Shown piece by piece: positions 2,158 through 55,690 of a stretch of 64,000 nucleotides of DNA; within the stretch, counting starts at the first letter, position 1; every line of letters starts with the position of its first letter. Under the pieces are notes generated by a model that saw nothing but the letters and a program-made list of their open reading frames with translations, was not told the origin of the DNA and ran no database searches. The position numbers and the translations under genes were made by a program. Origin of the DNA: a virus; the IMG/VR virus record IMGVR_UViG_3300045988_123958; one strand, given 5' to 3'.

Positions 2158-3896
2158 TGGCATTACAAGATTTACTGTAGTTAAGTGATAGCCGTAGAAA
2201 AATAGGGTTATCACCGGAGCGAGTAGAAGCGGTCATGCCCACTATCCGCAAATACGTTGCCTTTTGGAGAGAATATCCTGATTTATTTGTAGATTTTATG
2301 GTTCGAGGAAGACGTACTGAAATAAAAGATGGAGAATTTAACTTTTATTTTTATTAGAGAGTATTTCTCCGTTCTGTTATGCGTTATTAGTATGTTTACG
2401 CGGTTTTTCCTCGTGCTTATTCCAAATCATTCTTGTCTGTTATGGCATTAATGATTAGATGTATTTTATATCCTGGTGCGCATTTGTTCGTTACTTCTGG
2501 AGGTAAAGAACAAGGTGCTAGTATTCTTCATGATAAAGTTCAAGAAATATGTGAACTTATTCCAAGTTTTAATCGAGAAATTGATTGGAGTCGAGGAAAA
2601 ACTCTTGAAGGAAAAGATAAAGTTAGATATGTATTTAAAAATGGTTCAGTTTTGGATAACCTCGCAGCTCGTGAAAGCACTCGTGGTCAGCGTCGTCATG
2701 GTGGATTAATGGAAGAATGTGTTGGTATTGATGATGCCATTCTTCGTGAAGTTATTATTCCTGTTATGGCAATTTCTCGTAGAGCTAAAGATGGCACTAC
2801 TAATGAACAAGAGCCATTAAATAAATCACAAATCTATATTACTACTGCTGGTTATAAGGGCACATTCCCTTATGATAGACTTATTGGTTTCTTAGTTCGT
2901 ATGGTGACTTAGCCTGATCGTTGTATGGTATTAGGCGGAACATGGCGAACTCCTGTTGCGGTAGGATTACAAAGTAAAACATTTATTACTGACCAAAAGA
3001 AGGAAGGAACTTATAATGAGGCTTCATTCGAACGTGAATACGAGTCTAAGTGGTCAGGAACGGTCGAGGATGCTTTCTTTAATGGAGAGCATTTTGATAG
3101 AAATAGAAAACTATTATAGCCTGAATATGAAGCTTCTGGACGTGCGGGTGCGCAAGCTTATTATGTGCTTTCTGTAGATGTAGGTCGTAAAGGATGCGAT
3201 TCAGTAGTTTGTGTATTTAAAGTAACACCACAAGCTCAAGGTCCAGCTATTAAATCTTTAGTAAATATGTATACTATGTCAGATGACCATTTTGAAGATT
3301 AGGCTATTAAATTAAAGAAATTATTTTATAAATATAAAGCTAAAACTTTGGTTATAGACGGTAATGGTTTAGGTATTGGACTTTTAGATTATATGGTAAA
3401 ATCTCAAAATGATGAAGATGGTGAATTTTTACCTGATTTTGGTGTTGAGAATGATGATGATGGGTATTATAAAAAATATCGCACACCAAATACTCAATTT
3501 GATGCTATGTATGTTATTAAAGCAAATGCTCCAATAAATACTGAATGTCATGCTAACGCTCAGACTCAATTACAGGCGGGTAAAGTAAAATTTTTAATAG
3601 ATGAGAGAACAGCTAAAGAAAAATTATTAGCTACTCAAAAAGGTTCAAAAATGACTCCTGAACAAAGGGCAGATTATTTAAAACCATTTACTTTAACCTC
3701 CATATTAAAAGAAGAAATGATGAATTTACGCGAAGAAAATGAAGGTATTAATATTATCCTAAAATAGGCAAATCGCGGAATTCGTAAAGATAAATTTTCG
3801 GCTTTTGAATATGGATTATATTATTTAAAACTTGAAGAAGATAAAAAGAAAAAACGTAAAAAGTTTAATGCGGCTGATTGGTGCTTTTTAAATTAA
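2157..3896 (+). CDS. terL: terminase large subunit
   Basis: ATG at 2157 is in frame with track ORFs 2433..2912, 2925..3119 and 3348..3767 through TAG codons. N-terminal ATPase-like region and a C-terminal RNaseH-like nuclease region (YVLSVDVGRKGCDSVVCVF). End coordinate is approximate. Confidence 0.75.
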
Positions 3897-3908
3897 GGAG
3901 GGTGGAAA

Positions 3909-4265
3909 ATGCGTGCTTCAAGAGGAGAAATTAAAATTGAAGAAATCTTAGAAGAAGCAGGACTACCTTTTAAAATGGAATATATTTTTCCAGATTTAAA
4001 AAGCCCAAGCGGGCGTCCGCTTCGTTTTGATTTTGTTATATTTGATGATGATGGAAAAATTGATTTCATTATTGAGTATTAGGGAAAATAGCATTATGAA
4101 GCCAGTTCTAAATTTGGCGGAAAACGCGGTTTATACCAGTAGCAATATAATGATAATCAAAAAAGACGTTTTTGCGCTTTACATGATTTTAGATTAATAG
4201 AGATTCCATATACCGACGAAAACCTTATTTCTTATGATTATATAATGAAATTAGCAGGTTATTAA
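3909..4265 (+). CDS. PD-(D/E)xK Vsr/DUF559-like endonuclease, putative free-standing homing endonuclease
   Basis: Reading TAG as sense gives about 118 aa with the motif FDFVIFDDDGKIDFIIEYQGKQH (IExxGxxH signature). Located between terL and portal, a classic site for homing-endonuclease insertion. Coordinates approximate. Confidence 0.5.
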
Positions 4266-4278
4266 AGGAGGTGGAACT

Positions 4279-5928
4279 TTGGATACGCAAGATCGTAATG
4301 ATTAGATTCACGCTAAAGGTTTTGATATTTATAATAGTCGTTATGAATATAATTATAATGACACTATGGATTATGCCAATAGAAAAATAAAAGTTGGCAC
4401 AAAAACTTTAGATGATGCTATTTTAAAACTTGGTGATTATAGTAAGATTAGATACCCAGGTCAAACTCGTATTATCACGAAACCTGATGTGCTTCGCGCG
4501 CTCGCAGAAAGAGATTTAAATGCTTTGCGATATATTTCTAATTTTTATTATGACATAAGTGGTGTATATCAACGAGTTTGTAATTATGTTGCTTTTTTAT
4601 ACCGCTATGATTGGTATATTGCGGCCGAAACTTATGATGATAATGTAAAAGAAGAAAAAGTTTTAAAAGATTTTTATAGAATGTTGAATTATTTTGATAA
4701 TAGTTATATTAAAAAGATTTGCGGAGATATTGCTTTACAAGTCGTTAAAAATGGATGCTATTATGGATATATAGTTCCTTCAGAGAAAAATCTAATTTTA
4801 CAAGAATTGCCAGTTAGATATTGTAGAACACGTTATAGTGTAAATAATACCCCAGTTGTCGAATTTGATATGCGATTTTTTGATACTTTTAGAGATATGA
4901 ATTATCGTTTAAAAGTATTAAAATTATTCCCAGAAGAATTTGCTAAAGGTTATGTTTTATATAAGCAAGGAAAACTTGCTTTAGAAGAAGCGGTCGGATG
5001 TCAACACACAGGTAGTTGGTATGTTCTTGAACCAGAAAATTGTGTTAAGTTTAATATTAATAATAGTGATATTCCTATTTTTGTAAACTCTATTCCAACG
5101 ATTATGGATTTGGACGCTGCGCAAGACCTTGACCGCAAGAAACAAATGTAGAAATTACTTAAAATTTTAGTCCAAAAGCTTCCAATGGATAAAAATGGCG
5201 ATTTGATATTTGATGTTGATGAAGCCAGAGATATTCATAATAATGCAGTTTAGATGTTATAGAGGGCTATTGGAGTAGATGTTTTGACTACATTTACTGA
5301 TGTAGATTCTATTGATATGTCTGATAAGAATACTACAACGACTACTGATGATTTAGCAAAAGTTGAACGTAGTGTTTATAATTCATTAGGTATCTCATAG
5401 AATTTGTTTAATACTGATGGTAATATGGCTTTAGAGAAATCTGTATTGAATGATGAATCTACAATAAGAAGTTTAATTTTATAGTTTAATATATTCTTTA
5501 ATAGGATTATTGAAAAAAAGAGTAGTAATAAAAAATATAATTTTAGATTTTATTTATTAGAAACTACTCAAAATAATTATCAAACACTTTCTAAAATGTA
5601 TAAAGAACAAGCGCAAATGGGACAATCAAAACTATTGTCTTAGATTGCTCTTGGACATTCATAGAGTTTTATTCTTAATGCAGCTCATTTTGAAAATGAG
5701 ATTTTACATTTAAGTGAAATTATGATTCCTCCTCTTATGAGTTCTACTATGGGTAGTGAAGATATTTTGGGTTTAAAAGGTTCATCATCTAATAATAAAA
5801 CTCAAAATAATTCAGGAAGTTCAGGTTCTGGAACTGCTAAAACTTCTAATGGTGAGGCAGGACGTCCGGAGAAACCTGATGATTAGAAAAGTGAAAAAAC
5901 TATTCAAAATAAAGAAGCAATGAAATAA
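4279..5928 (+). CDS. portal protein
   Basis: TTG start after AGGAGGTG. Track ORF 4366..5151 extends through many in-frame TAG to a TAA near 5926. About 549 codons, Ser/Gly-rich acidic C-terminus, positioned between terL and the scaffold gene. Confidence 0.6.
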
Positions 5929-50299: not shown

Positions 50300-50707
50300 A
50301 TGGATCAAAATTTAATTAATCAATTGTTTCAAGTGTGTTTGATTCCTATGCTTGGTGCTTTAACCACTTTTATAGTTATTTGGATTAAAGCAAAAAGTGC
50401 AGAATTACAAAAGAAAACTAATAATGATATTTTAAATAAATATGTGCAAATGGCTACTGACACAATTACTAATTGTGTTATTGCCACCAATCAAACTTAT
50501 GTAAATTCTCTTAAAGAACAAGGTAAGTTTGATGAAGCTGCTCAAAAAGAAGCATTTTAGAGAACTTATCAAGCAGTATTGCTTATTTTAAGTGATGATG
50601 CTAAAGAGTATTTGAATAATGCTTTTGGTGATTTAAATAAATATTTACAAGAGAAGATTGAGTCTACAGTAAATAATTATCGTACTCCAAGTAATGATTT
50701 AAAGTAA
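50300..50707 (+). CDS. putative holin
   Basis: Track ORF 50300..50560 extended through 1 TAG to about 135 codons. Single N-terminal transmembrane helix (LIPMLGALTTFIVIWI) followed by a charged C-terminal tail. Confidence 0.45.
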
Positions 50708-50713
50708 TAAAAA

Positions 50714-50755
50714 TAAGGGAGACATTCTTAATTGAATGTCTCCCTTATTTTTTTT
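50714..50755. terminator. bidirectional rho-independent terminator
   Basis: AAGGGAGACATTC...GAATGTCTCCCTT hairpin flanked by A- and T-runs, between convergent genes. Confidence 0.7.
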
Positions 50756-51470
50756 ATCTGAATGGATTTTTCCATCGTCGATTAATTTCTTCATAGCCTT
50801 TTTTAGGAAAGTATAAAACTTCACCATTTTTGAAAGTTAAATTGTCTTTATTCATTATTTTAATTTGATTTAAAGTAATAATTAAACTTGGTGGGATAAA
50901 GACAAAATCTGGATGATAAACTAAAGTTCCTATATAATTTTCAAAAGAAGTTTTTAGAGTTTTACTATTTAGAACCTCATTTTCTAAATGATAACACAAA
51001 TTTCGTTTTTGGATATCAGCATATAATACTTTACCCAAATCAATTTTTACTTCTCCATTAGGAGTGTCTAAATATTTATATTCACGTCTTTTTTCTTCTC
51101 TAACTTCATGTAAAATAGAAAAAATTTTTTCTTTATTAGCAGGTTTTTTGACGAAGTTAAATGCCTTTACTTCATAAGAAGCTACTCCATAATTTATTTG
51201 AGAGGAAACAAAAATTATTTTTCCAATATACCCATTTGTTCTTAAGAGATGAGCTATTTCAATACCATCCATTTTTTTGAATGTAATCCCTAAAAAGATT
51301 GCATCATAATCAATATTAGAATCAATTAATTTTCCAGGATCAGTAAATTTATATACATATCCCGGCAAATTAAATTCTTTAAAATACTGATTTATTATTT
51401 CTTCCAATGAGTCATTTTGCTAATCACTATTGTCGCAAACACCTACGATAAAAATTTTAATCACCTTCAT
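50754..51470 (-). CDS. LytTR-family response regulator with atypical receiver (Gly at phospho-acceptor position)
   Basis: Track ORF 50754..51407 extends 5' through one in-frame TAG to an ATG at 51468-70, giving MKVIKIFIVGVCDNSDQQND... (about 238 codons). The receiver domain keeps the acidic pair, the Ser/Thr and the Lys, but has FLGI where FLDI is expected. C-terminal LytTR DNA-binding domain. Confidence 0.65.
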
Positions 51471-51564: not shown

Positions 51565-51620
51565 AAGTGTCAAATTTATTTAATTTTAAGTAAGTGAAAT
51601 TTTTATTCAAAAAGTGTCAG
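51565..51620. promoter_or_regulatory. direct repeats AAAGTGTCA (x2, plus an AAGTG half-site) in a divergent AT-rich promoter region
   Basis: AAAGTGTCA occurs at 51565-73 and 51611-19, with AAGTGAAAT at about 51592, between the LytTR gene and the 51714 operon. Confidence 0.35.
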
Positions 51621-51713
51621 TAATTATAATATATTTACACAAAATAAAAGTCATATAATAATGAAAGGAAAAGATAAAACCTTTCATTATTATATTTCTC
51701 CGGAGGTAATAAC

Positions 51714-52160
51714 ATGAATACTTATGGTTATCCATAGCAGTAGTATCCAATAGGTAATAATAGACCTATTTATGGAACAACTGCTACGCCTGTGATTCAA
51801 AATAATACTACATAGCGAATTAGACCCGTTGCTTCTTTAGAAGAGGTTCGAGCTATGAATATAGATTTTGATGGTTCAGTTTTTTATTTTCCTGACTATG
51901 CTAATCGTAGAATTTATACAAAACAAATAAATATGGATGGAACAGCTTCTATTAATATGTATGAATTAAAAGAAATCCCAAATTCTTCTTAGCCTAATAA
52001 TGACTATATAACACGAGAAGAGTTTAATACTACCTTAACTTCTATTAAAGAAGTATTTGCATAGATCATGGGATCTAATAACGCGGTTGCGCCGTCTTAG
52101 GAATCGGGTTAGCCAGCTCAATAGCAACCAACAGAAAGCAAACCGCAGTTTAATTTTTAA
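51714..52160 (+). CDS. Pro/Gln-rich hypothetical protein
   Basis: ATG after a GGAGGT RBS. About 148 codons with 7 TAG. Q/P-rich at both ends. Confidence 0.45.
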
Positions 52161-52172
52161 GGAGAGTTTCAA

Positions 52173-52421
52173 ATGACACAATCAATGAATCCAATACAAA
52201 TTATTGCTATGATTAAAAACGGTCAAAATCCATAGCAATTAGTTTTATCTATGCTTGAAAATCAAATGGGTGGAACGCCAATGGGCAATAATTTATTACA
52301 AATGGCACGGAACGGTCAATCCGATGACATTGAAAAATTTGCTCGTAATTTGTTTGAATCAAGAGGTTTGAATTTCGATAAAGAATTTAATAGTTTTAAG
52401 TCCCAAATAGGGTTTAAATAA
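52173..52421 (+). CDS. small Gln/Asn-rich hypothetical protein
   Basis: 82 codons with 2 TAG and a GGAGAG RBS. Confidence 0.4.
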
Positions 52422-52447
52422 ATAAAATTATAGAAAGAGGTTTTGTT

Positions 52448-53320
52448 ATGTTTAATTACAATTATCCAATGAGCACGCCGAATTATTCATTATCTGATAT
52501 TGCTGCGGCTTCTGGAAATGGCTATCGTAATAATGATGGCGGAATGTGGGGAGACGGAGCATGGTGGATTATTATTCTGTTCTTATTCTGCTTCAATGGT
52601 TGGGGCGGTAATGGCTGGGGTAATAATGGTTCTGGTTTCCAAGGCACTACAACCCGAGAAGAATTGAACTATGGTTTCGACATTAGTGATCTTAAATCTG
52701 GAGTCAATAGTTTAAATTCTAGCCTTTGTAATGGTTTTAGCGGAGTAAACACTAATCTTTTAAGTGGTTTTGCTAATCTTGCTGAAACTAATAATGCCAA
52801 TACTCGTGCTTTACAGAGCGATATCTGCAATATGGGTATGAATAATATGCAAAATACCTTTAGTATTACTCAGGCCATTAATGCCGATACTGTAGCAGGT
52901 ATGCAGAATACTAATAATTTAACTCAGCAATTAAGTAATATGGCAGCTACTAATGCTCAATGCTGCTGCGAGAATAAACAATTAATTCAATCTAGTTTTG
53001 CTGATCTTAATTACAATCTCGCTAGTATTGCTTGCCAGAATCGTCAGACTACCGTTGATGGTGTCCGCGATATTATTGACAACAATAATGCTAATATGCG
53101 TTCTATTCTTGACTTCCTTGTTCAAGATAAAATTGAGACTCTTACCAGTGAAAATAGCACTCTTAAAAATTAGATTTCTCAAAATCTTCAAAATGCTTAT
53201 CTTATTGATCAGTTGTCTCCAAAAGCAACTCCTGCTTATATTGTTGCTAATCCTTATACCGGTGTTAGTTATACTAGCTATGGATGCGGATATGGTTCAG
53301 GATGCGGTTGCAATTCCTGA
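52448..53320 (+). CDS. Gly/Asn/Trp-rich single-pass membrane protein with N/Q-rich coiled region and Cys-rich C-terminal tail
   Basis: Track ORF 52448..53173 extended through 1 TAG to a TGA near 53318. Transmembrane segment AWWIIILFLFCF flanked by GWGGNGWGNNG repeats. C-terminus is GCGYGSGCGCNS. Confidence 0.5.
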
Positions 53321-53341
53321 TTGAAGAAAGAAGGTTAAATT

Positions 53342-53632
53342 ATGGAAATAACGGCTAATGCTTTACAATCAGTTGCTACTGGTTCTAATGTAGTATTCAC
53401 TAACACAGCTGTTGCTGGAAACTGTTCCATAATGTATCGCGAGGGTAGCGGTCTAGTTACCCTCCGCGGTCTTACGAACGGTCAACGCAGAGCTCGTTTC
53501 CGCATTTCATTTGGAGGTAATATAGGACTTCCAACTACTGGAACTGCGGGTGCTATTTCTTTGGCTATAGCTATTAATGGAGAGCCAGTTACTACTTCTA
53601 CAATGATTTCTACTCCTACGGCTACTGGATAG
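53342..53632 (+). CDS. C1q/TNF-like (BclA C-terminal-domain-like) protein
   Basis: Track ORF 53342..53632 is extended through one in-frame TAG at 53630-32 and ends at TAA near 53762 (about 140 codons). Predicted all-beta Gly/Thr/Asn-rich domain resembling exosporium BclA C-terminal domain or C1q jelly rolls. The call rests on remembered family features, not a search. Confidence 0.35.
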   Translation: MEITANALQSVATGSNVVFTNTAVAGNCSIMYREGSGLVTLRGLTNGQRRARFRISFGGNIGLPTTGTAGAISLAIAINGEPVTTSTMISTPTATG

Positions 53633-53777
53633 TTTAATAATGTTTCACGTGCTTTATTCCTTGATGTGTTAGGCGGTTGTTGCACTCAAATCAGTATTGA
53701 AAACACGAGTTCATAGGCTATTGATGTTGAAAATGCCAGCTTAATTATCGAGAGAGTGGCATAAGGAGGTTTTTTAA

Positions 53778-54320
53778 ATGTGCGATAAATTCCAAGAAAT
53801 TAAAAAGCAATTATTAACTCAAGTAGAAAGCCAAATGGCTCATTTAGAATGTGTTGATACAAAGGAAATGGGCGAAGTAATAGATATGATAAAAGACCTT
53901 GAACAGGCTATTTATTATTGCACTATTACTGAAGCTATGAATGAATTACCTGAAACCACACATTATTATACTGAAAAATATAAATCTCCTCATAAAAAAA
54001 GAATTTATAAACCCATGACATATAATTATGATTGGGAAGATTATGATTATGATGAACATGAATATGAGATGCCAACGAGTGGGAAATCTCATGAAGCCCA
54101 TGATAGCAGAGAGGGTCGTAGCGGCGTCCACAGAAAGATGTATATAGAAGCCAAAGAACTTCATAAAGATAAAAGCGTTTAGATAAAAGAGTTAGACAAG
54201 TATCTTCAAGAATTAAGCTCTGATATAGTAGAAATGATTGAAGATGCTTCTAATGATGAACGTTCTTATATGGAGAAGAAAATCTAGGCTTTAGCATCTA
54301 AAATTGGATCTATGAATGGT
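53778..54320 (+). CDS. acidic His/Tyr-rich hypothetical protein
   Basis: Track ORF 53778..54182 extended through 2 TAG. About 181 codons. Confidence 0.4.
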
Positions 54321-54615
54321 TAATATTAATAATAGGAATTGGAGGATACTATTAGTATCTTCCAATCATCCTATGTTAATGCGACCTTCTGGAATATATA
54401 CTTTAGGTTCTTGTGATGATCCTACTTCAACAATTTATATTAATGAAAATATTAGCAATAAAAAATTAAAAAAAGTATTAGCGCATGAATTAACTCATGC
54501 TGCTATTTTTAGCTATGATATTTCATTAAAACCAGAAGAAGAAGAATTGATTGCGGATTTGGTGGGAACTTATGGTGAAGAAATTATAAATAATACTAAT
54601 CTTTTATTTAAATAG
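54316..54615 (+). CDS. HExxH zincin-like putative metallopeptidase (ImmA/SprT-like)
   Basis: Intact 99-aa ORF with the motif LAHELTHAAIF. Confidence 0.4.
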   Translation: MVNINNRNWRILLVSSNHPMLMRPSGIYTLGSCDDPTSTIYINENISNKKLKKVLAHELTHAAIFSYDISLKPEEEELIADLVGTYGEEIINNTNLLFK

Positions 54616-54627
54616 ATAAAAAAAATA

Positions 54628-54670
54628 AGGGAATGAAACTATTTTTGTTTCATTCCCTTATTTTTTTTTA
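54628..54670. terminator. bidirectional rho-independent terminator
   Basis: AAGGGAATGAAAC...GTTTCATTCCCTT hairpin flanked by an A-run and a T9 run. Confidence 0.7.
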
Positions 54671-55099
54671 TTAGTCTTTAAGCGGTAATTTTAAAGTCCT
54701 TTCATAGTACTCTTTAGCCTATCCATTTCCACCTAAACCTGCATATACTTTAAAGAATTCGACTAACTATTCATACTGCCCTGAAGTCATATATCCTTGT
54801 TTTAAGAAACTTTGACATAATTGAATTAATCTAAATCTATAAGAAGCAAGAATTATTTCAATATATTTCTCACTACTTTTCTTTTCTTCCAATACGAAAG
54901 ATCTTAAATTATTTAAATCTTCTTTAATTGGAGCTATATGTTCTTCAATTAATTCTTCTAATTGTTCATCTTTCTTTTCTTCTGCCAATTTTTGATACAT
55001 TTTCATTTGGGTATAAATATATCTACAAAAGGCTAAGAGGCCAGCAGAAATAAGACCAAAAAATATTTCTATAAAATGCTAGGCAATAAAAGCAGACAT
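54671..55099 (-). CDS. small membrane protein
   Basis: Track ORF 54767..55006 extended in both directions through TAG. ATG at 55097-99 after a GGAGGT RBS. N-terminal transmembrane helix. About 142 codons. Confidence 0.45.
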
Positions 55100-55156: not shown

Positions 55157-55690
55157 TATTTATTTAAGGCCTATTTATTACTCCCAATTAAAATCATTAT
55201 TGGAACTTTCTTTCGTGAAATATGCGGTATATAAACATATGGCATCACATATATCGTCATTGGCTTTTATATTATATTTTTGCTATACAAAATCAATATC
55301 AGCTTGTTTAAGAGTTTCACGTTTAATACTGCGACCGGTTTTAATTCCGAGTTTTTTGCGCCATTCACTTGCCTACATCAGCTCTAATGTTTTGGAAGTA
55401 AATGAAGAATTAACTCCATGGGCGCCTAACATTACTGCGCCTTGAAGCCACATTAATAAACGTGAAGTATCAGAATATCCATAAGTTTCAGGATGAACAT
55501 CTTCCGCTACTATCTTCTCTATATTATATTTTTTTACTAATTCAATAATCTAATCTTGTATTTTTTGTATTCTATCTAAATTATTAGAGGAAACCGCGGT
55601 TAGCAGTCCATAATCTAACATTTCTCCCTCATTATTAGATACACAATAACCAGTAGATTTAGTGGACAAATCTAAAAAGAGGATATTCAA
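55157..55690 (-). CDS. RuvC-like Holliday junction resolvase
   Basis: TTG start after a GGAGGTAATTAC RBS. 177 codons with 4 in-frame TAG. Contains ILFLDLSTKSTGYCV near the N-terminus and DDICDAICLYTAYF near the C-terminus. No piece is long enough to appear in the ORF track. Confidence 0.55.

What the first reader, a model, noticed from the sequence alone, without database searches (positions are those of the whole stretch)
51714..54615. Accessory operon of unusual surface-type proteins downstream of the LytTR promoter: candidate novel module
Six co-directional genes sit between two bidirectional terminators, outside both the virion and the replication modules. Their products are a P/Q-rich 148-aa protein and a Q/N-rich 82-aa protein. 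They also include a Gly/Asn/Trp-rich single-pass membrane protein (GWGGNGWGNNG) with N/Q-rich heptad-like repeats and a Cys-rich GCGYGSGCGCNS tail. There is a small all-beta protein reminiscent of C1q/TNF-like BclA C-terminal domains of spore exosporium proteins. The last two are a His/Tyr-rich acidic protein and an HExxH zincin. The composition (Cys-rich tail, BclA-like domain, Q/P-rich proteins) resembles spore coat or exosporium or cell-surface components rather than phage structural proteins. Together with the anaerobic NrdDG enzymes this fits a phage of a spore-forming anaerobe carrying a regulator-controlled surface- or spore-modifying module. This is speculative, but it is the least explained part of the window.
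Basis: inference. Interest (0 to 1): 0.7.

Follow-up and report, generated by a model that had tools for sequence, protein, structure and literature searches.

The report
Widespread uncharacterised phage late-gene cassette
The six genes are real and belong to a rigidly conserved, so far undescribed cassette carried next to the lysis genes of thousands of gut Firmicutes phages; its core is a hydrophobically anchored helical stalk protein plus a small protein with the fold of the anthrax-spore surface protein BclA, but nothing ties it to spores.

Summary

The block is not a peculiarity of this phage. The same order, (Cys-peptidase-like)-g1-g2-g3-g4-g5-(Ygd or zincin g6), recurs in all 88 loci examined. 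The g3, g4 and g5 families hold 3,000-5,500 90%-identity clusters each, with no Pfam domain or name.

The cassette usually follows the holin/endolysin genes and precedes the integrase. In this TAG-recoded ~195-kb lineage it follows the holin directly. Its TAG density equals that of the virion genes and is 8-fold that of the replication genes, so it is probably a late function here. It also occurs in the reportedly virulent Butyrivibrio phage Ceridwen. The LytTR regulator is lineage-specific.

A spore-modifying role is therefore not supported. My best guess, at low confidence, is a two-part stalk-plus-C1q-head assembly, anchored at the membrane, matured by a small peptidase and acting at the envelope around lysis. 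The function remains unknown.

The parts
51714..52160 (+). g1: 148-aa protein. It has a P/Q/N/Y-rich disordered N-terminus, a conserved small beta-rich middle domain and a C-terminal amphipathic helix. It carries 8 in-frame TAG (Gln) codons. It is the first gene of the conserved cassette.
   Evidence: ORF and translation. phrog_21718 (unknown function) at 4.8e-07; the Ceridwen homologue scores 1e-29. Homologue present in 77 of 88 loci, always first or just after the Cys-peptidase-like gene. GGAGG lies 8 nt upstream of the ATG. No Pfam or PDB sequence relative.
52173..52421 (+). g2: 82-aa Gln/Asn/Met-rich small helical protein. Candidate chaperone or adaptor (inference from composition only).
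   Evidence: The Ceridwen homologue matches phrog_22984 at 2.8e-18. Present in 69 of 88 loci between g1 and g3.
52448..53320 (+). g3: 290-aa stalk protein. Parts in order: a conserved N-terminal motif (YSLSDIAA); a short hydrophobic core of 12-16 residues with Trp/Gly-rich flanks; a Gly-rich disordered linker; about 175 residues of long helix in two segments with a hinge; an invariant CCC; a conserved P.P.Y.V.NP motif; and a GCGC-type Cys-rich tail.
   Evidence: phrog_16490 at 4.9e-32. Family of 5,530 clusters, no Pfam, no name. Family-wide conserved features. AF2 model (pLDDT 58): H39-49, disorder 50-78, H79-145, H151-256, disorder 257-290. Core length and absence of flanking K/R. Hydrophobic periodicity 3.67.
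53342..53764 (+). g4: 140-aa standalone C1q/TNF-type beta jelly roll of the BclA/ExsFA type. It has an invariant GCC and an REGSG loop. It is the most conserved gene of the cassette.
53778..54323 (+). g5: 181-aa acidic protein. It has helical N- and C-terminal segments and a central Tyr/His/Lys/Asp-rich low-complexity region (Arg/Gly/Tyr/Ser-rich in other phages).
   Evidence: Family of 3,157 clusters, no Pfam, no name. Found after g4 in 85 of 88 loci. No PDB sequence relative.
54316..54636 (+). g6: 106-aa minimal HExxH (HELTH 57-61, then EEEE 74-77) zincin. Its start overlaps the end of g5 by 8 nt. It ends at TGA 54634-54636 after reading TAG 54613-54615 as Gln. It is the alternative to the upstream Cys-peptidase-like gene of other cassette variants.
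   Evidence: Pfam DUF2268 at 2.1e-05 (24.5 bits, cut-off 23.6), DUF6782, Peptidase_M78, SprT-like. phrog_1233 at 1.1e-14 and phrog_87 metallo-protease at 3.9e-06. Homologue directly after g5 in Dulem virus 39. Among 57 loci with intact flanks: g6 only 15, Cys-peptidase-like only 40, both 1, neither 1.
54620..54666 (.). Bidirectional intrinsic terminator closing the cassette and the convergent minus-strand genes.
   Evidence: 20-bp stem with T runs on both strands; sequence read.
51653..51695 (+). Perfect 16-nt inverted repeat (11-nt loop) immediately upstream of the g1 ribosome-binding site. Possible operator or 5'-UTR hairpin; role unknown.
   Evidence: I3, 100% complementary; sequence.
50300..50707 (+). 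Holin, the gene that directly precedes the cassette in diverged relatives of this phage. It is context, not part of the cassette proper.
   Evidence: phrog_13712 holin at 6.1e-38. Holin followed directly by g1 in L010, L012, L013, L017 and L018.
50754..51470 (-). Divergently transcribed LytTR-type response regulator. It is a lineage-specific insertion between the holin and the cassette, with a degenerate receiver domain (Gly at the expected phospho-Asp position, by eye).
   Evidence: Response_reg at 2.9e-08, LytTR at 0.022, phrog_8810 at 3.6e-23. No homologue next to the cassette in nine diverged relatives.

Best explanation
The six genes are this phage's copy of a widespread, self-contained late-gene cassette of gut Firmicutes phages. 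The cassette builds a two-component, anchored fibre-like assembly at the host cytoplasmic membrane around the time of lysis.

Shown:
- The cassette is a rigid syntenic unit: (Cys-peptidase-like)-g1-g2-g3-g4-g5-(Ygd or zincin g6).
- It travels between unrelated phage backbones.
- It usually lies directly after the holin/endolysin genes.
- In this phage it has the TAG usage of late genes.
- g4 is a BclA/ExsFA-type C1q/TNF jelly roll, always a standalone protein.
- g3 has a short hydrophobic anchor, a long bipartite helical stalk, and a conserved Pro-rich motif plus Cys-rich tail.
- A small peptidase of either the Cys or the Zn type is almost always attached to the cassette.

Inferred:
- g3 oligomerises into a stalk about 25 nm long, tethered by its N-terminal hydrophobic segment.
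- Its conserved C-terminal P.P.Y.V.NP/Cys motif docks onto the g4 trimer. This is analogous to BclA-type leader peptides docking into ExsFA trimers. The conserved CC/CCC clusters may add Cys-mediated (disulfide or metal) cross-links.
- g1, g2 and g5, all rich in low-complexity sequence, act as chaperones, adaptors or matrix.
- The peptidase (g6 here) matures one component.
- None of the soluble parts has a signal peptide. So the assembly either forms on the cytoplasmic face or reaches the wall only when the holin opens the membrane, as endolysins do.
- Its role is therefore an accessory one at the envelope during or after lysis. Examples would be completing envelope or S-layer disruption, or coating debris or receptors so that progeny are not lost. 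It is not host conversion.
For: Code 15 and gene models.

Synteny and family size:
- Rigid synteny in 88 loci spanning identities down to about 35-40%.
- Family sizes.

Position:
- Upstream neighbours are dominated by endolysin and holin PHROGs. Downstream neighbours are dominated by integrase and regulators, or by RuvC/dUTPase in the jumbo lineage.
- The holin is directly followed by g1 in the TAG-recoded relatives.
- Alternative positions, inside the head module or after an integrase, show that the cassette moves as a unit.

Timing:
- TAG density is 1.58 per 100 aa in the cassette, 1.51 in the virion genes and 0.20 in the replication genes (computed).
- The idea that recoded stops mark late genes comes from bioRxiv 10.1101/2021.08.26.457843.

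Components:
- g4 fold.
- g3 architecture.
- No TM segment or signal peptide in g1, g2, g4, g5 or g6.
- Alternative peptidases (40 Cys-type, 15 Zn-type, 1 both, 1 neither). g5/g6 overlap.
- g4 is conserved like the core enzymes, whereas the neighbouring tail-fibre genes have no detectable homologues.

Presence in a phage reported as lytic and virulent: and PMC7372960. ExsF-peptide docking precedent: PMC12357932.
Against: - No experiment or interaction prediction links g3 to g4. Co-occurrence is the only evidence.
- The g3 model has low confidence (pLDDT 58, pTM 0.23).
- The g3 hydrophobic core is only 12-16 residues long and has almost no flanking positive charge. Membrane insertion and topology are therefore uncertain.
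- The slot after the lysis genes is also the classic 'moron' slot of temperate phages. Adjacency to lysis genes may reflect operon architecture rather than function.
- The type of g3 N-terminal motif does not co-vary with the type of peptidase, so there is no evidence that g3 is the peptidase substrate.
- The peptidase alternation may partly reflect phylogeny, because the g6 variant is concentrated in one clade.
- The Cys-peptidase-like family also occurs alone in Bacillus, Geobacillus and Lak phages.
- No known lysis accessory of monoderm-infecting phages looks like this.
Confidence: 0.35

Rival explanations
1. Virion accessory fibre or decoration. In this reading the g3 stalk plus the g4 C1q-like head is a particle-bound fibre, like PRD1 P5, phage fibre tips or head fibres. 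g1, g2 and g5 would be assembly chaperones and the peptidase a maturation protease.
For: - The cassette has late-gene TAG usage and is co-oriented with the virion genes.
- No signal peptides, which fits cytoplasmic assembly.
- In a few loci the cassette lies inside the head module, between portal/minor head and scaffold/capsid genes.
Against: - g4 is among the most conserved genes of the region (52-75% identity). The adjacent tail-fibre genes are too diverged to detect. That is the opposite of a host-range determinant.
- g4 is not fused to a shaft or virion-attachment domain in any of the 150 best of 837 representatives.
- The cassette sits on unrelated backbones (40-kb siphoviruses, a 195-kb phage) at different positions without co-transfer of structural genes.
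- A hydrophobic anchor flanked by Gly/Trp is unusual for a fibre.
- The usual position is after the lysis genes, not among the tail genes.
Confidence: 0.22
2. The first reader's idea, a lysogenic-conversion or spore-surface module. The cassette would be expressed from the prophage and would add a BclA/ExsF-like, Cys-cross-linked layer to the host cell or spore surface.
For: - The best structural matches of g4 are exosporium proteins: F-BclA, BclA and ExsFA.
- The composition echoes coat and exosporium proteins (Cys-rich g3 tail, Tyr/Lys/Asp-rich g5, P/Q-rich g1). This is resemblance only.
- The usual location between the lysis genes and the integrase is the classic conversion-gene slot.
- About a quarter of loci have their own small HTH regulator upstream, and this window has a LytTR regulator.
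Against: - All six genes here carry TAG codons (8 in g1) at virion-gene density. A standard-code host could not translate them without the phage's late recoding machinery.
- The cassette is present in Ceridwen, which is reported as lytic and virulent (PMC7372960) and infects Butyrivibrio, a non-spore-former (own knowledge).
- No sequence membership in BclA_C, the exosporium leader, ExsF or any spore family. No collagen repeats.
- None of the soluble components has an export signal.
- The cassette is found only in phage or prophage context.
- The LytTR gene is not conserved with the cassette.
Confidence: 0.12
3. A bacteriocin-like or RiPP-like product. The Gly/Cys-rich ends of g3 would be processed by the attached peptidase and released at lysis as an antimicrobial or signalling peptide. 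A LytTR or sigma-like regulator would control it, as in class II bacteriocin loci.
For: - The GCGCGC tails and Gly-rich segments resemble modified-peptide cores.
- A small Cys peptidase or zincin is always attached.
- The neighbouring regulator is of the LytTR type, a family that classically controls bacteriocin operons (own knowledge).
Against: - No cyclodehydratase, radical-SAM maturase, ABC transporter or immunity gene is seen in any locus.
- g3 is a 230-330-aa protein with a conserved long helical body, not a short precursor.
- The Cys-peptidase-like family matched no Pfam peptidase family, C39 included.
- LytTR is lineage-specific.
- This reading gives g4 no role.
Confidence: 0.05
4. An assortment of unrelated morons, or an anti-defence or defence island with no common function.
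For: All members are 'unknown function' in every library.
Against: - Order and content are kept across 88 loci down to about 35-40% identity.
- Genes overlap or are tightly spaced.
- There are no PADLOC matches.
- Homing endonucleases have inserted between cassette genes without breaking the set.
Confidence: 0.04

Closest known systems
BclA / F-BclA C-terminal domain and ExsFA (BxpB) of the Bacillus cereus-group exosporium (C1q/TNF superfamily; PDB 1wck, 9h38, 7r1m)
   Same: - Like ExsFA, g4 is a standalone domain of about 140-170 aa.
- ExsFA trimers bind Pro-rich leader peptides of stalk proteins (PMC12357932). This suggests how the conserved Pro-rich C-terminal motif of g3 could dock.
   Different: - Sequence identity is only 15-20%. 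There is no hit to Pfam BclA_C or to NCBIfam exosporium models.
- No collagen-like stalk and no exosporium leader.
- g4 is encoded only in phages, is apparently expressed late in infection, and occurs in a phage of a non-sporulating host.
- The invariant GCC and REGSG motifs are specific to this family.
Two-component spanins (lambda Rz/Rz1) of phages of Gram-negative hosts
   Same: - Same gene position, right after the holin/endolysin genes.
- g3 resembles the i-spanin Rz in layout. Rz has an N-terminal anchor, two long helical segments separated by a hinge, and conserved cysteines; its partner Rz1 is Pro-rich (own knowledge of Rz/Rz1).
   Different: - No lipoprotein partner and no lipobox anywhere in the cassette.
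- The hosts appear to be monoderm Firmicutes, which have no outer membrane to fuse.
- The anchor is too short and lacks positive flanks.
- The cassette has five to seven genes, not two.
- There is no sequence similarity.
TNF-like or C1q-like receptor-binding tips of phage fibres (PRD1 P5, Sf6 needle knob, cyanophage A4/A-1(L) fibres, TM4 gp23, lactococcal phage 1358 RBP)
   Different: - Those tips are C-terminal domains of long fibre proteins and vary with host range.
- g4 is always a separate small protein. It is highly conserved and is encoded away from the tail genes.
Minimal zincins of phages and mobile elements (DUF2268, ImmA/IrrE M78, SprT-like)
   Same: g6 has HExxH followed by an acidic cluster about 17-20 residues after the first His. 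It passes the DUF2268 gathering score and matches phrog_87 'metallo-protease'.
   Different: - At 106 aa it is much shorter than those families.
- It is not paired with a repressor, as ImmA is.
- It occupies the place that a Cys-peptidase-like protein fills in most cassette variants.

Membership tests
BclA family (exosporium collagen-like glycoprotein) | C-terminal C1q/TNF-like beta jelly-roll domain | tested here: met
   [not shown]
BclA family (exosporium collagen-like glycoprotein) | Sequence membership in Pfam BclA_C (PF18573) | tested here: not met
   No Pfam family at E<=1 for g4. Identity to BclA structures is only 15-20%.
BclA family (exosporium collagen-like glycoprotein) | Collagen-like GXY repeat stalk in the same polypeptide | tested here: not met
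   g4 is 140 aa and all jelly roll. The 150 best-scoring of 837 family representatives are all 71-196 aa.
BclA family (exosporium collagen-like glycoprotein) | N-terminal exosporium leader motif (TIGR03720) | tested here: not met
   The NCBIfam scan of all six proteins gave no such hit at E<=1.
BclA family (exosporium collagen-like glycoprotein) | Sporulation-specific expression in a spore-forming host | not testable with these tools
   Indirect evidence is against it. TAG density equals that of late phage genes. The cassette is present in lytic Butyrivibrio phage Ceridwen (PMC7372960).
ExsFA/BxpB (exosporium basal-layer TNF-like trimer) | Standalone TNF-like domain that binds leader peptides of stalk proteins | tested here: inconclusive
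   [not shown]
Two-component spanin (Rz/Rz1) | Genes located in the lysis cassette next to holin/endolysin | tested here: met
   Upstream neighbours are dominated by endolysin and holin PHROGs. The holin directly precedes g1 in relatives.
Two-component spanin (Rz/Rz1) | Type II membrane protein with a canonical N-terminal TMD and a coiled-coil ectodomain | tested here: inconclusive
   Long bipartite helix with a hinge, but in a low-confidence model. The hydrophobic core is only 12-16 residues and both flanks lack K/R.
Two-component spanin (Rz/Rz1) | Outer-membrane lipoprotein partner with a lipobox | tested here: not met
   None of g1, g2, g4, g5 or g6 has a hydrophobic N-terminus or a lipobox.
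Zincin metallopeptidase (for g6) | HExxH motif plus a downstream acidic third ligand, and a profile match | tested here: met
   HELTH at 57-61 and EEEE at 74-77. DUF2268 scores 24.5 bits against a cut-off of 23.6; M78 at 3.2e-4; phrog_87 metallo-protease at 3.9e-06. Catalysis was not tested.
Known anti-phage defence systems (PADLOC) | Match of any component to a defence-system model | tested here: not met
   No hit at E<=0.01 for nine proteins.
LytTR-regulated operon (AgrA/ComE-type regulon) | Conserved association of the regulator with the target operon | tested here: not met
   The regulator has no homologue next to the cassette in nine diverged relatives. Binding sites were not tested.

The most novel reading that the evidence does not exclude
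The cassette is a previously unrecognised, widespread functional module of phages that infect monoderm gut Firmicutes. It would be a self-assembling, Cys-cross-linked apparatus made of a membrane-tethered stalk and a C1q-like head. It would act on the Gram-positive envelope at lysis. That could be a functional counterpart of spanins for the wall or S-layer, or a coat that masks receptors on debris. Either way it would add a third class of lysis-associated machinery beyond holin and endolysin.
Probability: 0.15. Interest if true: 0.85.

Novelty: categorically new. Interest (0 to 1): 0.66.

Why it matters
A five-to-seven-gene block takes up about 10% of a 40-kb phage genome. It is kept in order down to about 35-40% identity. 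Its g3, g4 and g5 families are present in thousands of gut phage and prophage clusters. It is as conserved as ribonucleotide reductase in this lineage. A block like that must do something important, yet none of its families has a name, a Pfam domain or a paper.

It sits where phage biologists look for lysis and conversion functions. It combines an exosporium-type C1q fold with an unusual Gly/Trp/Cys-rich anchored stalk and an interchangeable peptidase.

Working out its role would fill a visible gap in the annotation of human and animal gut viromes. It could reveal a new step in how phages leave, or manipulate, Gram-positive cells. One cultured phage, Butyrivibrio phage Ceridwen, carries the cassette, so the question can be tested directly.

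Tried and rejected
Searches that found nothing:
- Pfam, NCBIfam, PHROG and PADLOC scans of all members gave only 'unknown function' PHROGs and the zincin signal for g6.
- Profile searches of the Cys-peptidase-like, g1 and g5 families against PDB sequences found nothing credible.
- Bulk Pfam scans of 34 Cys-peptidase-like and 40 g1 members looked for consistent weak hits. None were found. The idea that the Cys-peptidase-like protein is a C39 or NlpC/P60 peptidase therefore rests only on its invariant D-C...H...D pattern and on depositor labels of 'putative peptidase'.
- Full-text searches found no paper describing the cassette.

Ideas tested and not supported:
- Covariation between the g3 N-terminal motif type and the peptidase type, as a test of 'g3 is the substrate'. 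There is no strict covariation.
- The positive-inside rule for g3 topology is uninformative, because both flanks lack K/R.
- LytTR as the cassette regulator is rejected as a general feature.

Other dead ends:
- A search of the window for an endolysin, using 131 flank proteins from other loci, found none. This is inconclusive because two thirds of the phage genome lies outside the window.
- There is no tRNA gene in the window.
- The AFDB50 fold library was unavailable.
- The g3 model was too extended and low in confidence to justify a fold search.


Full report
**1. Genetic code and gene models**

Under table 11 the region is a patchwork of short ORFs. Treating TAG as a sense codon raises the summed length of stop-to-stop ORFs of at least 100 aa from 41.9 kb to 73.2 kb. 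The longest ORF grows from 1.6 kb to 8.2 kb. Recoding TGA has little effect.

With that code there are six tightly packed + strand genes:
- g1, 51714-52160, 148 aa.
- g2, 52173-52421, 82 aa.
- g3, 52448-53320, 290 aa.
- g4, 53342-53764, 140 aa.
- g5, 53778-54323, 181 aa.
- g6, 54316-54636, 106 aa.

A GGAGG lies 8 nt upstream of the g1 ATG. g5 and g6 overlap by 8 nt.

The finding's end coordinate, 54615, is an in-frame TAG. The gene runs on to TGA at 54636, and the standard-code homologue in Dulem virus 39 has the same C-terminal extension.

Two strong bidirectional terminators exist, at 50709-50752 and 54620-54666. The first one lies upstream of the divergent LytTR gene, so that gene is also enclosed between them.

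**2. The phage**

Near-identical copies of the block, with the same flanks, lie on metagenomic contigs of 65, 96, 198 and 380 kb. Contigs of about 190-200 kb recur. The flanks are tail-fibre genes and a holin on one side and RuvC, dUTPase, NrdG/NrdD, guanylate kinase and PolIII-alpha on the other.

The window also holds a terminase, a portal, a virion structural protein and a 2,739-aa putative tape-measure protein (my inference from its size and position). This is a large, long-tailed, TAG-recoded gut phage.

TAG density, computed:

| Gene set | TAG codons / residues | Per 100 aa |
|---|---|---|
| Cassette | 15 / 947 | 1.58 |
| Virion genes | 239 / 15,845 | 1.51 |
| Replication block, dUTPase onwards | 5 / 2,471 | 0.20 |

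If recoded stops gate late translation, as proposed in bioRxiv 10.1101/2021.08.26.457843, then the cassette is a late function in this phage.

**3. The block is a conserved, mobile cassette**

All library scans returned 'unknown function'. The hits were phrog_21718 (g1), phrog_16490 (g3, 5e-32), phrog_20016 (g4, 1e-48) and phrog_1233 (g6). There were no Pfam or NCBIfam hits for g1-g5.

tblastn found g4 in Butyrivibrio virus Ceridwen and in several uncultured phages. Reading those loci showed the same genes in the same order in standard-code genomes.

I then fetched 80 loci from GTDB species representatives. With iterated HMMs I classified the ORFs of 88 loci in all. The order (Cys-peptidase-like 'Cpep')-g1-g2-g3-g4-g5-('Ygd' or g6) is nearly invariant. 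The departures are mostly at contig ends.

Family sizes:
- g4: 4,719 clusters at 90% identity.
- g3: 5,530 clusters.
- g5: 3,157 clusters.
- None has a Pfam domain. The only source labels are a few JGI 'hypothetical protein' entries.
- At 50% identity g4 still has 837 representatives. The 150 best listed are all small standalone proteins.

**4. Position of the cassette**

I scanned the three genes on either side of 56 standard-code loci against PHROGs in bulk.
- Upstream, endolysin and holin families dominate, with a few portal and minor-head cases.
- Downstream, integrases (11) and regulators dominate. RuvC/dUTPase appear in the jumbo lineage, and scaffold/capsid genes in three loci.

So the usual slot is the end of the late operon, between the lysis and lysogeny genes. 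The cassette can also sit inside a head module (Dulem virus 35) or after an integrase (Dulem virus 39).

In diverged TAG-recoded relatives of this window the holin is followed directly by g1. There is neither an endolysin nor a LytTR gene in between. The LytTR regulator is therefore a lineage-specific insertion. About a quarter of loci do have a small sigma70-region-4-like HTH gene about 200 nt upstream.

I found no recognisable endolysin in the window. Most of the genome lies outside it, so this is inconclusive.

**5. The parts**

In BFVD the nearest models are uncharacterised 130-145-aa proteins of uncultured phages, two of them auto-labelled 'BclA protein'. Membership in the BclA family is not, because there is no PF18573 hit, no collagen repeat and no exosporium leader.

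*g3.* Across 74 sequences the architecture is constant. It comprises:
- an N-terminal motif (YSLSDIAA or MPVxP type);
- a Gly-rich stretch;
- a 12-16-residue hydrophobic core with Trp flanks;
- another Gly/Trp/Asn-rich stretch;
- a long polar helical region with an invariant CCC and an RD.I...ILD.L motif;
- a P.P.Y.V.NP motif and a GCGC-type tail.

AF2 gives a short helix at 39-49, disorder at 50-78, helices at 79-145 and 151-256, and a disordered tail (pLDDT 58). Both flanks of the hydrophobic core carry fewer than one K/R on average. Membrane anchoring is therefore plausible but atypical, and the topology is open.

*g1, g2, g5.* These have no hydrophobic segment or signal peptide and are rich in low-complexity sequence.

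*g6.* This is a minimal HExxH zincin.

*Peptidase alternation.* Among 57 loci with intact flanks, 40 have only the upstream Cys-peptidase-like gene, 15 have only g6, one has both and one has neither. The Cys-peptidase-like family has invariant D-C, H and D positions. This suggests that a small peptidase of either chemistry is a functional part of the cassette. The g6 variant is clade-restricted, and the Cys-peptidase-like family also occurs alone elsewhere.

**6. Conservation**

Across nine diverged relatives g4 keeps 52-75% identity. That is on a par with NrdD/NrdG and above the holin, dUTPase and RuvC. The adjacent tail-fibre genes have no detectable homologues. This pattern argues against g4 being a host-range-determining tip. 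It argues for a conserved partner or ligand.

**7. Interpretation**

The spore or exosporium reading fails on several counts:
- TAG usage points to late expression.
- The cassette is present in Ceridwen, which is reported as lytic and virulent (PMC7372960) and infects a non-sporulating genus (my own knowledge).
- There are no export signals.
- There is no sequence membership in any spore family.
- The context is exclusively phage.

A pure virion-fibre reading is weakened by the conservation pattern, by the standalone nature of g4, by the portability of the cassette between backbones, and by the hydrophobic anchor.

My best-supported model, at confidence of about 0.35, is as follows. The cassette is a late, envelope-directed assembly. 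In it a tethered g3 stalk carries a g4 C1q-like trimer. One possibility is that the conserved Pro-rich g3 tail docks the way leader peptides dock in ExsF (PMC12357932). The low-complexity proteins help, and the peptidase matures a component.

The layout of g3 and the position of the cassette recall the i-spanin Rz. The spanin membership test fails, however: there is no lipoprotein partner and the anchor is non-canonical.

The g3-g4 interaction, the oligomeric states, the topology and the biological role are all inference.

**8. Novelty**

No library, structure-sequence search or full-text literature search returned a description of the cassette or of five of its families. The g4 fold is known. 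The system is not.

Noticed in passing
window 50754-51470 (-): The LytTR-type response regulator has Gly where the phospho-acceptor Asp is expected (...YDAIFLGITFKKMDG...). Its N-terminal acidic pair is also degenerate. It is probably a phosphorylation-independent, orphan regulator. It is absent next to the cassette in diverged relatives.
   Followed up: partly
window 1-64000; holin at 50300-50707: No recognisable endolysin lies in the 64-kb window, although the whole virion module and a holin are present. In TAG-recoded relatives the holin is followed directly by the cassette. Either the endolysin is elsewhere in the ~195-kb genome or lysis is unconventional.
   Followed up: partly
window 51565-51619 and 51653-51695: The g1-LytTR intergenic region has a 9-mer, AAAGTGTCA, repeated 46 nt apart, with a degenerate copy between. 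It also has a perfect 16-nt inverted repeat just before the g1 ribosome-binding site. These are candidate regulator sites or a 5'-UTR hairpin.
   Followed up: partly
L001 7443-8306 (Ceridwen) and L002 5413-5964 (Dulem virus 33): Endonuclease genes are inserted inside the cassette at two different places. One lies between g4 and g5. The other lies on the opposite strand between g2 and g3. The first is HNH-like by my own reading and 'hypothetical' in the record; the second is annotated 'endonuclease'. This pattern is typical of homing endonucleases targeting highly conserved phage genes.
   Followed up: no
L048 6822-7307 + 7620-7976; also L061: The g3 homologue is split into two ORFs separated by about 300 nt. 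This could be an intron, an insertion or a frameshift.
   Followed up: no
window 54671-55099 (-) and 55178-55621 (-): The two minus-strand genes next to the cassette are a 142-aa membrane/helical protein and a RuvC-like resolvase. Both have late-gene-like TAG density (2.0-2.1 per 100 aa). The replication genes further on have about 0.2.
   Followed up: no
L089 (Geobacillus phage GBK2), L090 (Bacillus phage Kirov), Lak phages: The Cys-peptidase-like family that heads most cassettes also occurs on its own in Bacillus Tsamsa-like, Geobacillus and Prevotella Lak phages. Some depositors label it 'putative peptidase'.
   Followed up: partly
L009 (CAMELE010000001.1) and other GTDB loci: A 164-kb contig that is 97% identical in g4 is binned in an 'uncultured Mollicutes' MAG. 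Other cassette-bearing contigs are binned in Bacteroidales, Methanobrevibacter, Collinsella and similar MAGs. These are probably phage contigs mis-binned into MAGs, so host calls from these bins are unreliable.
   Followed up: no
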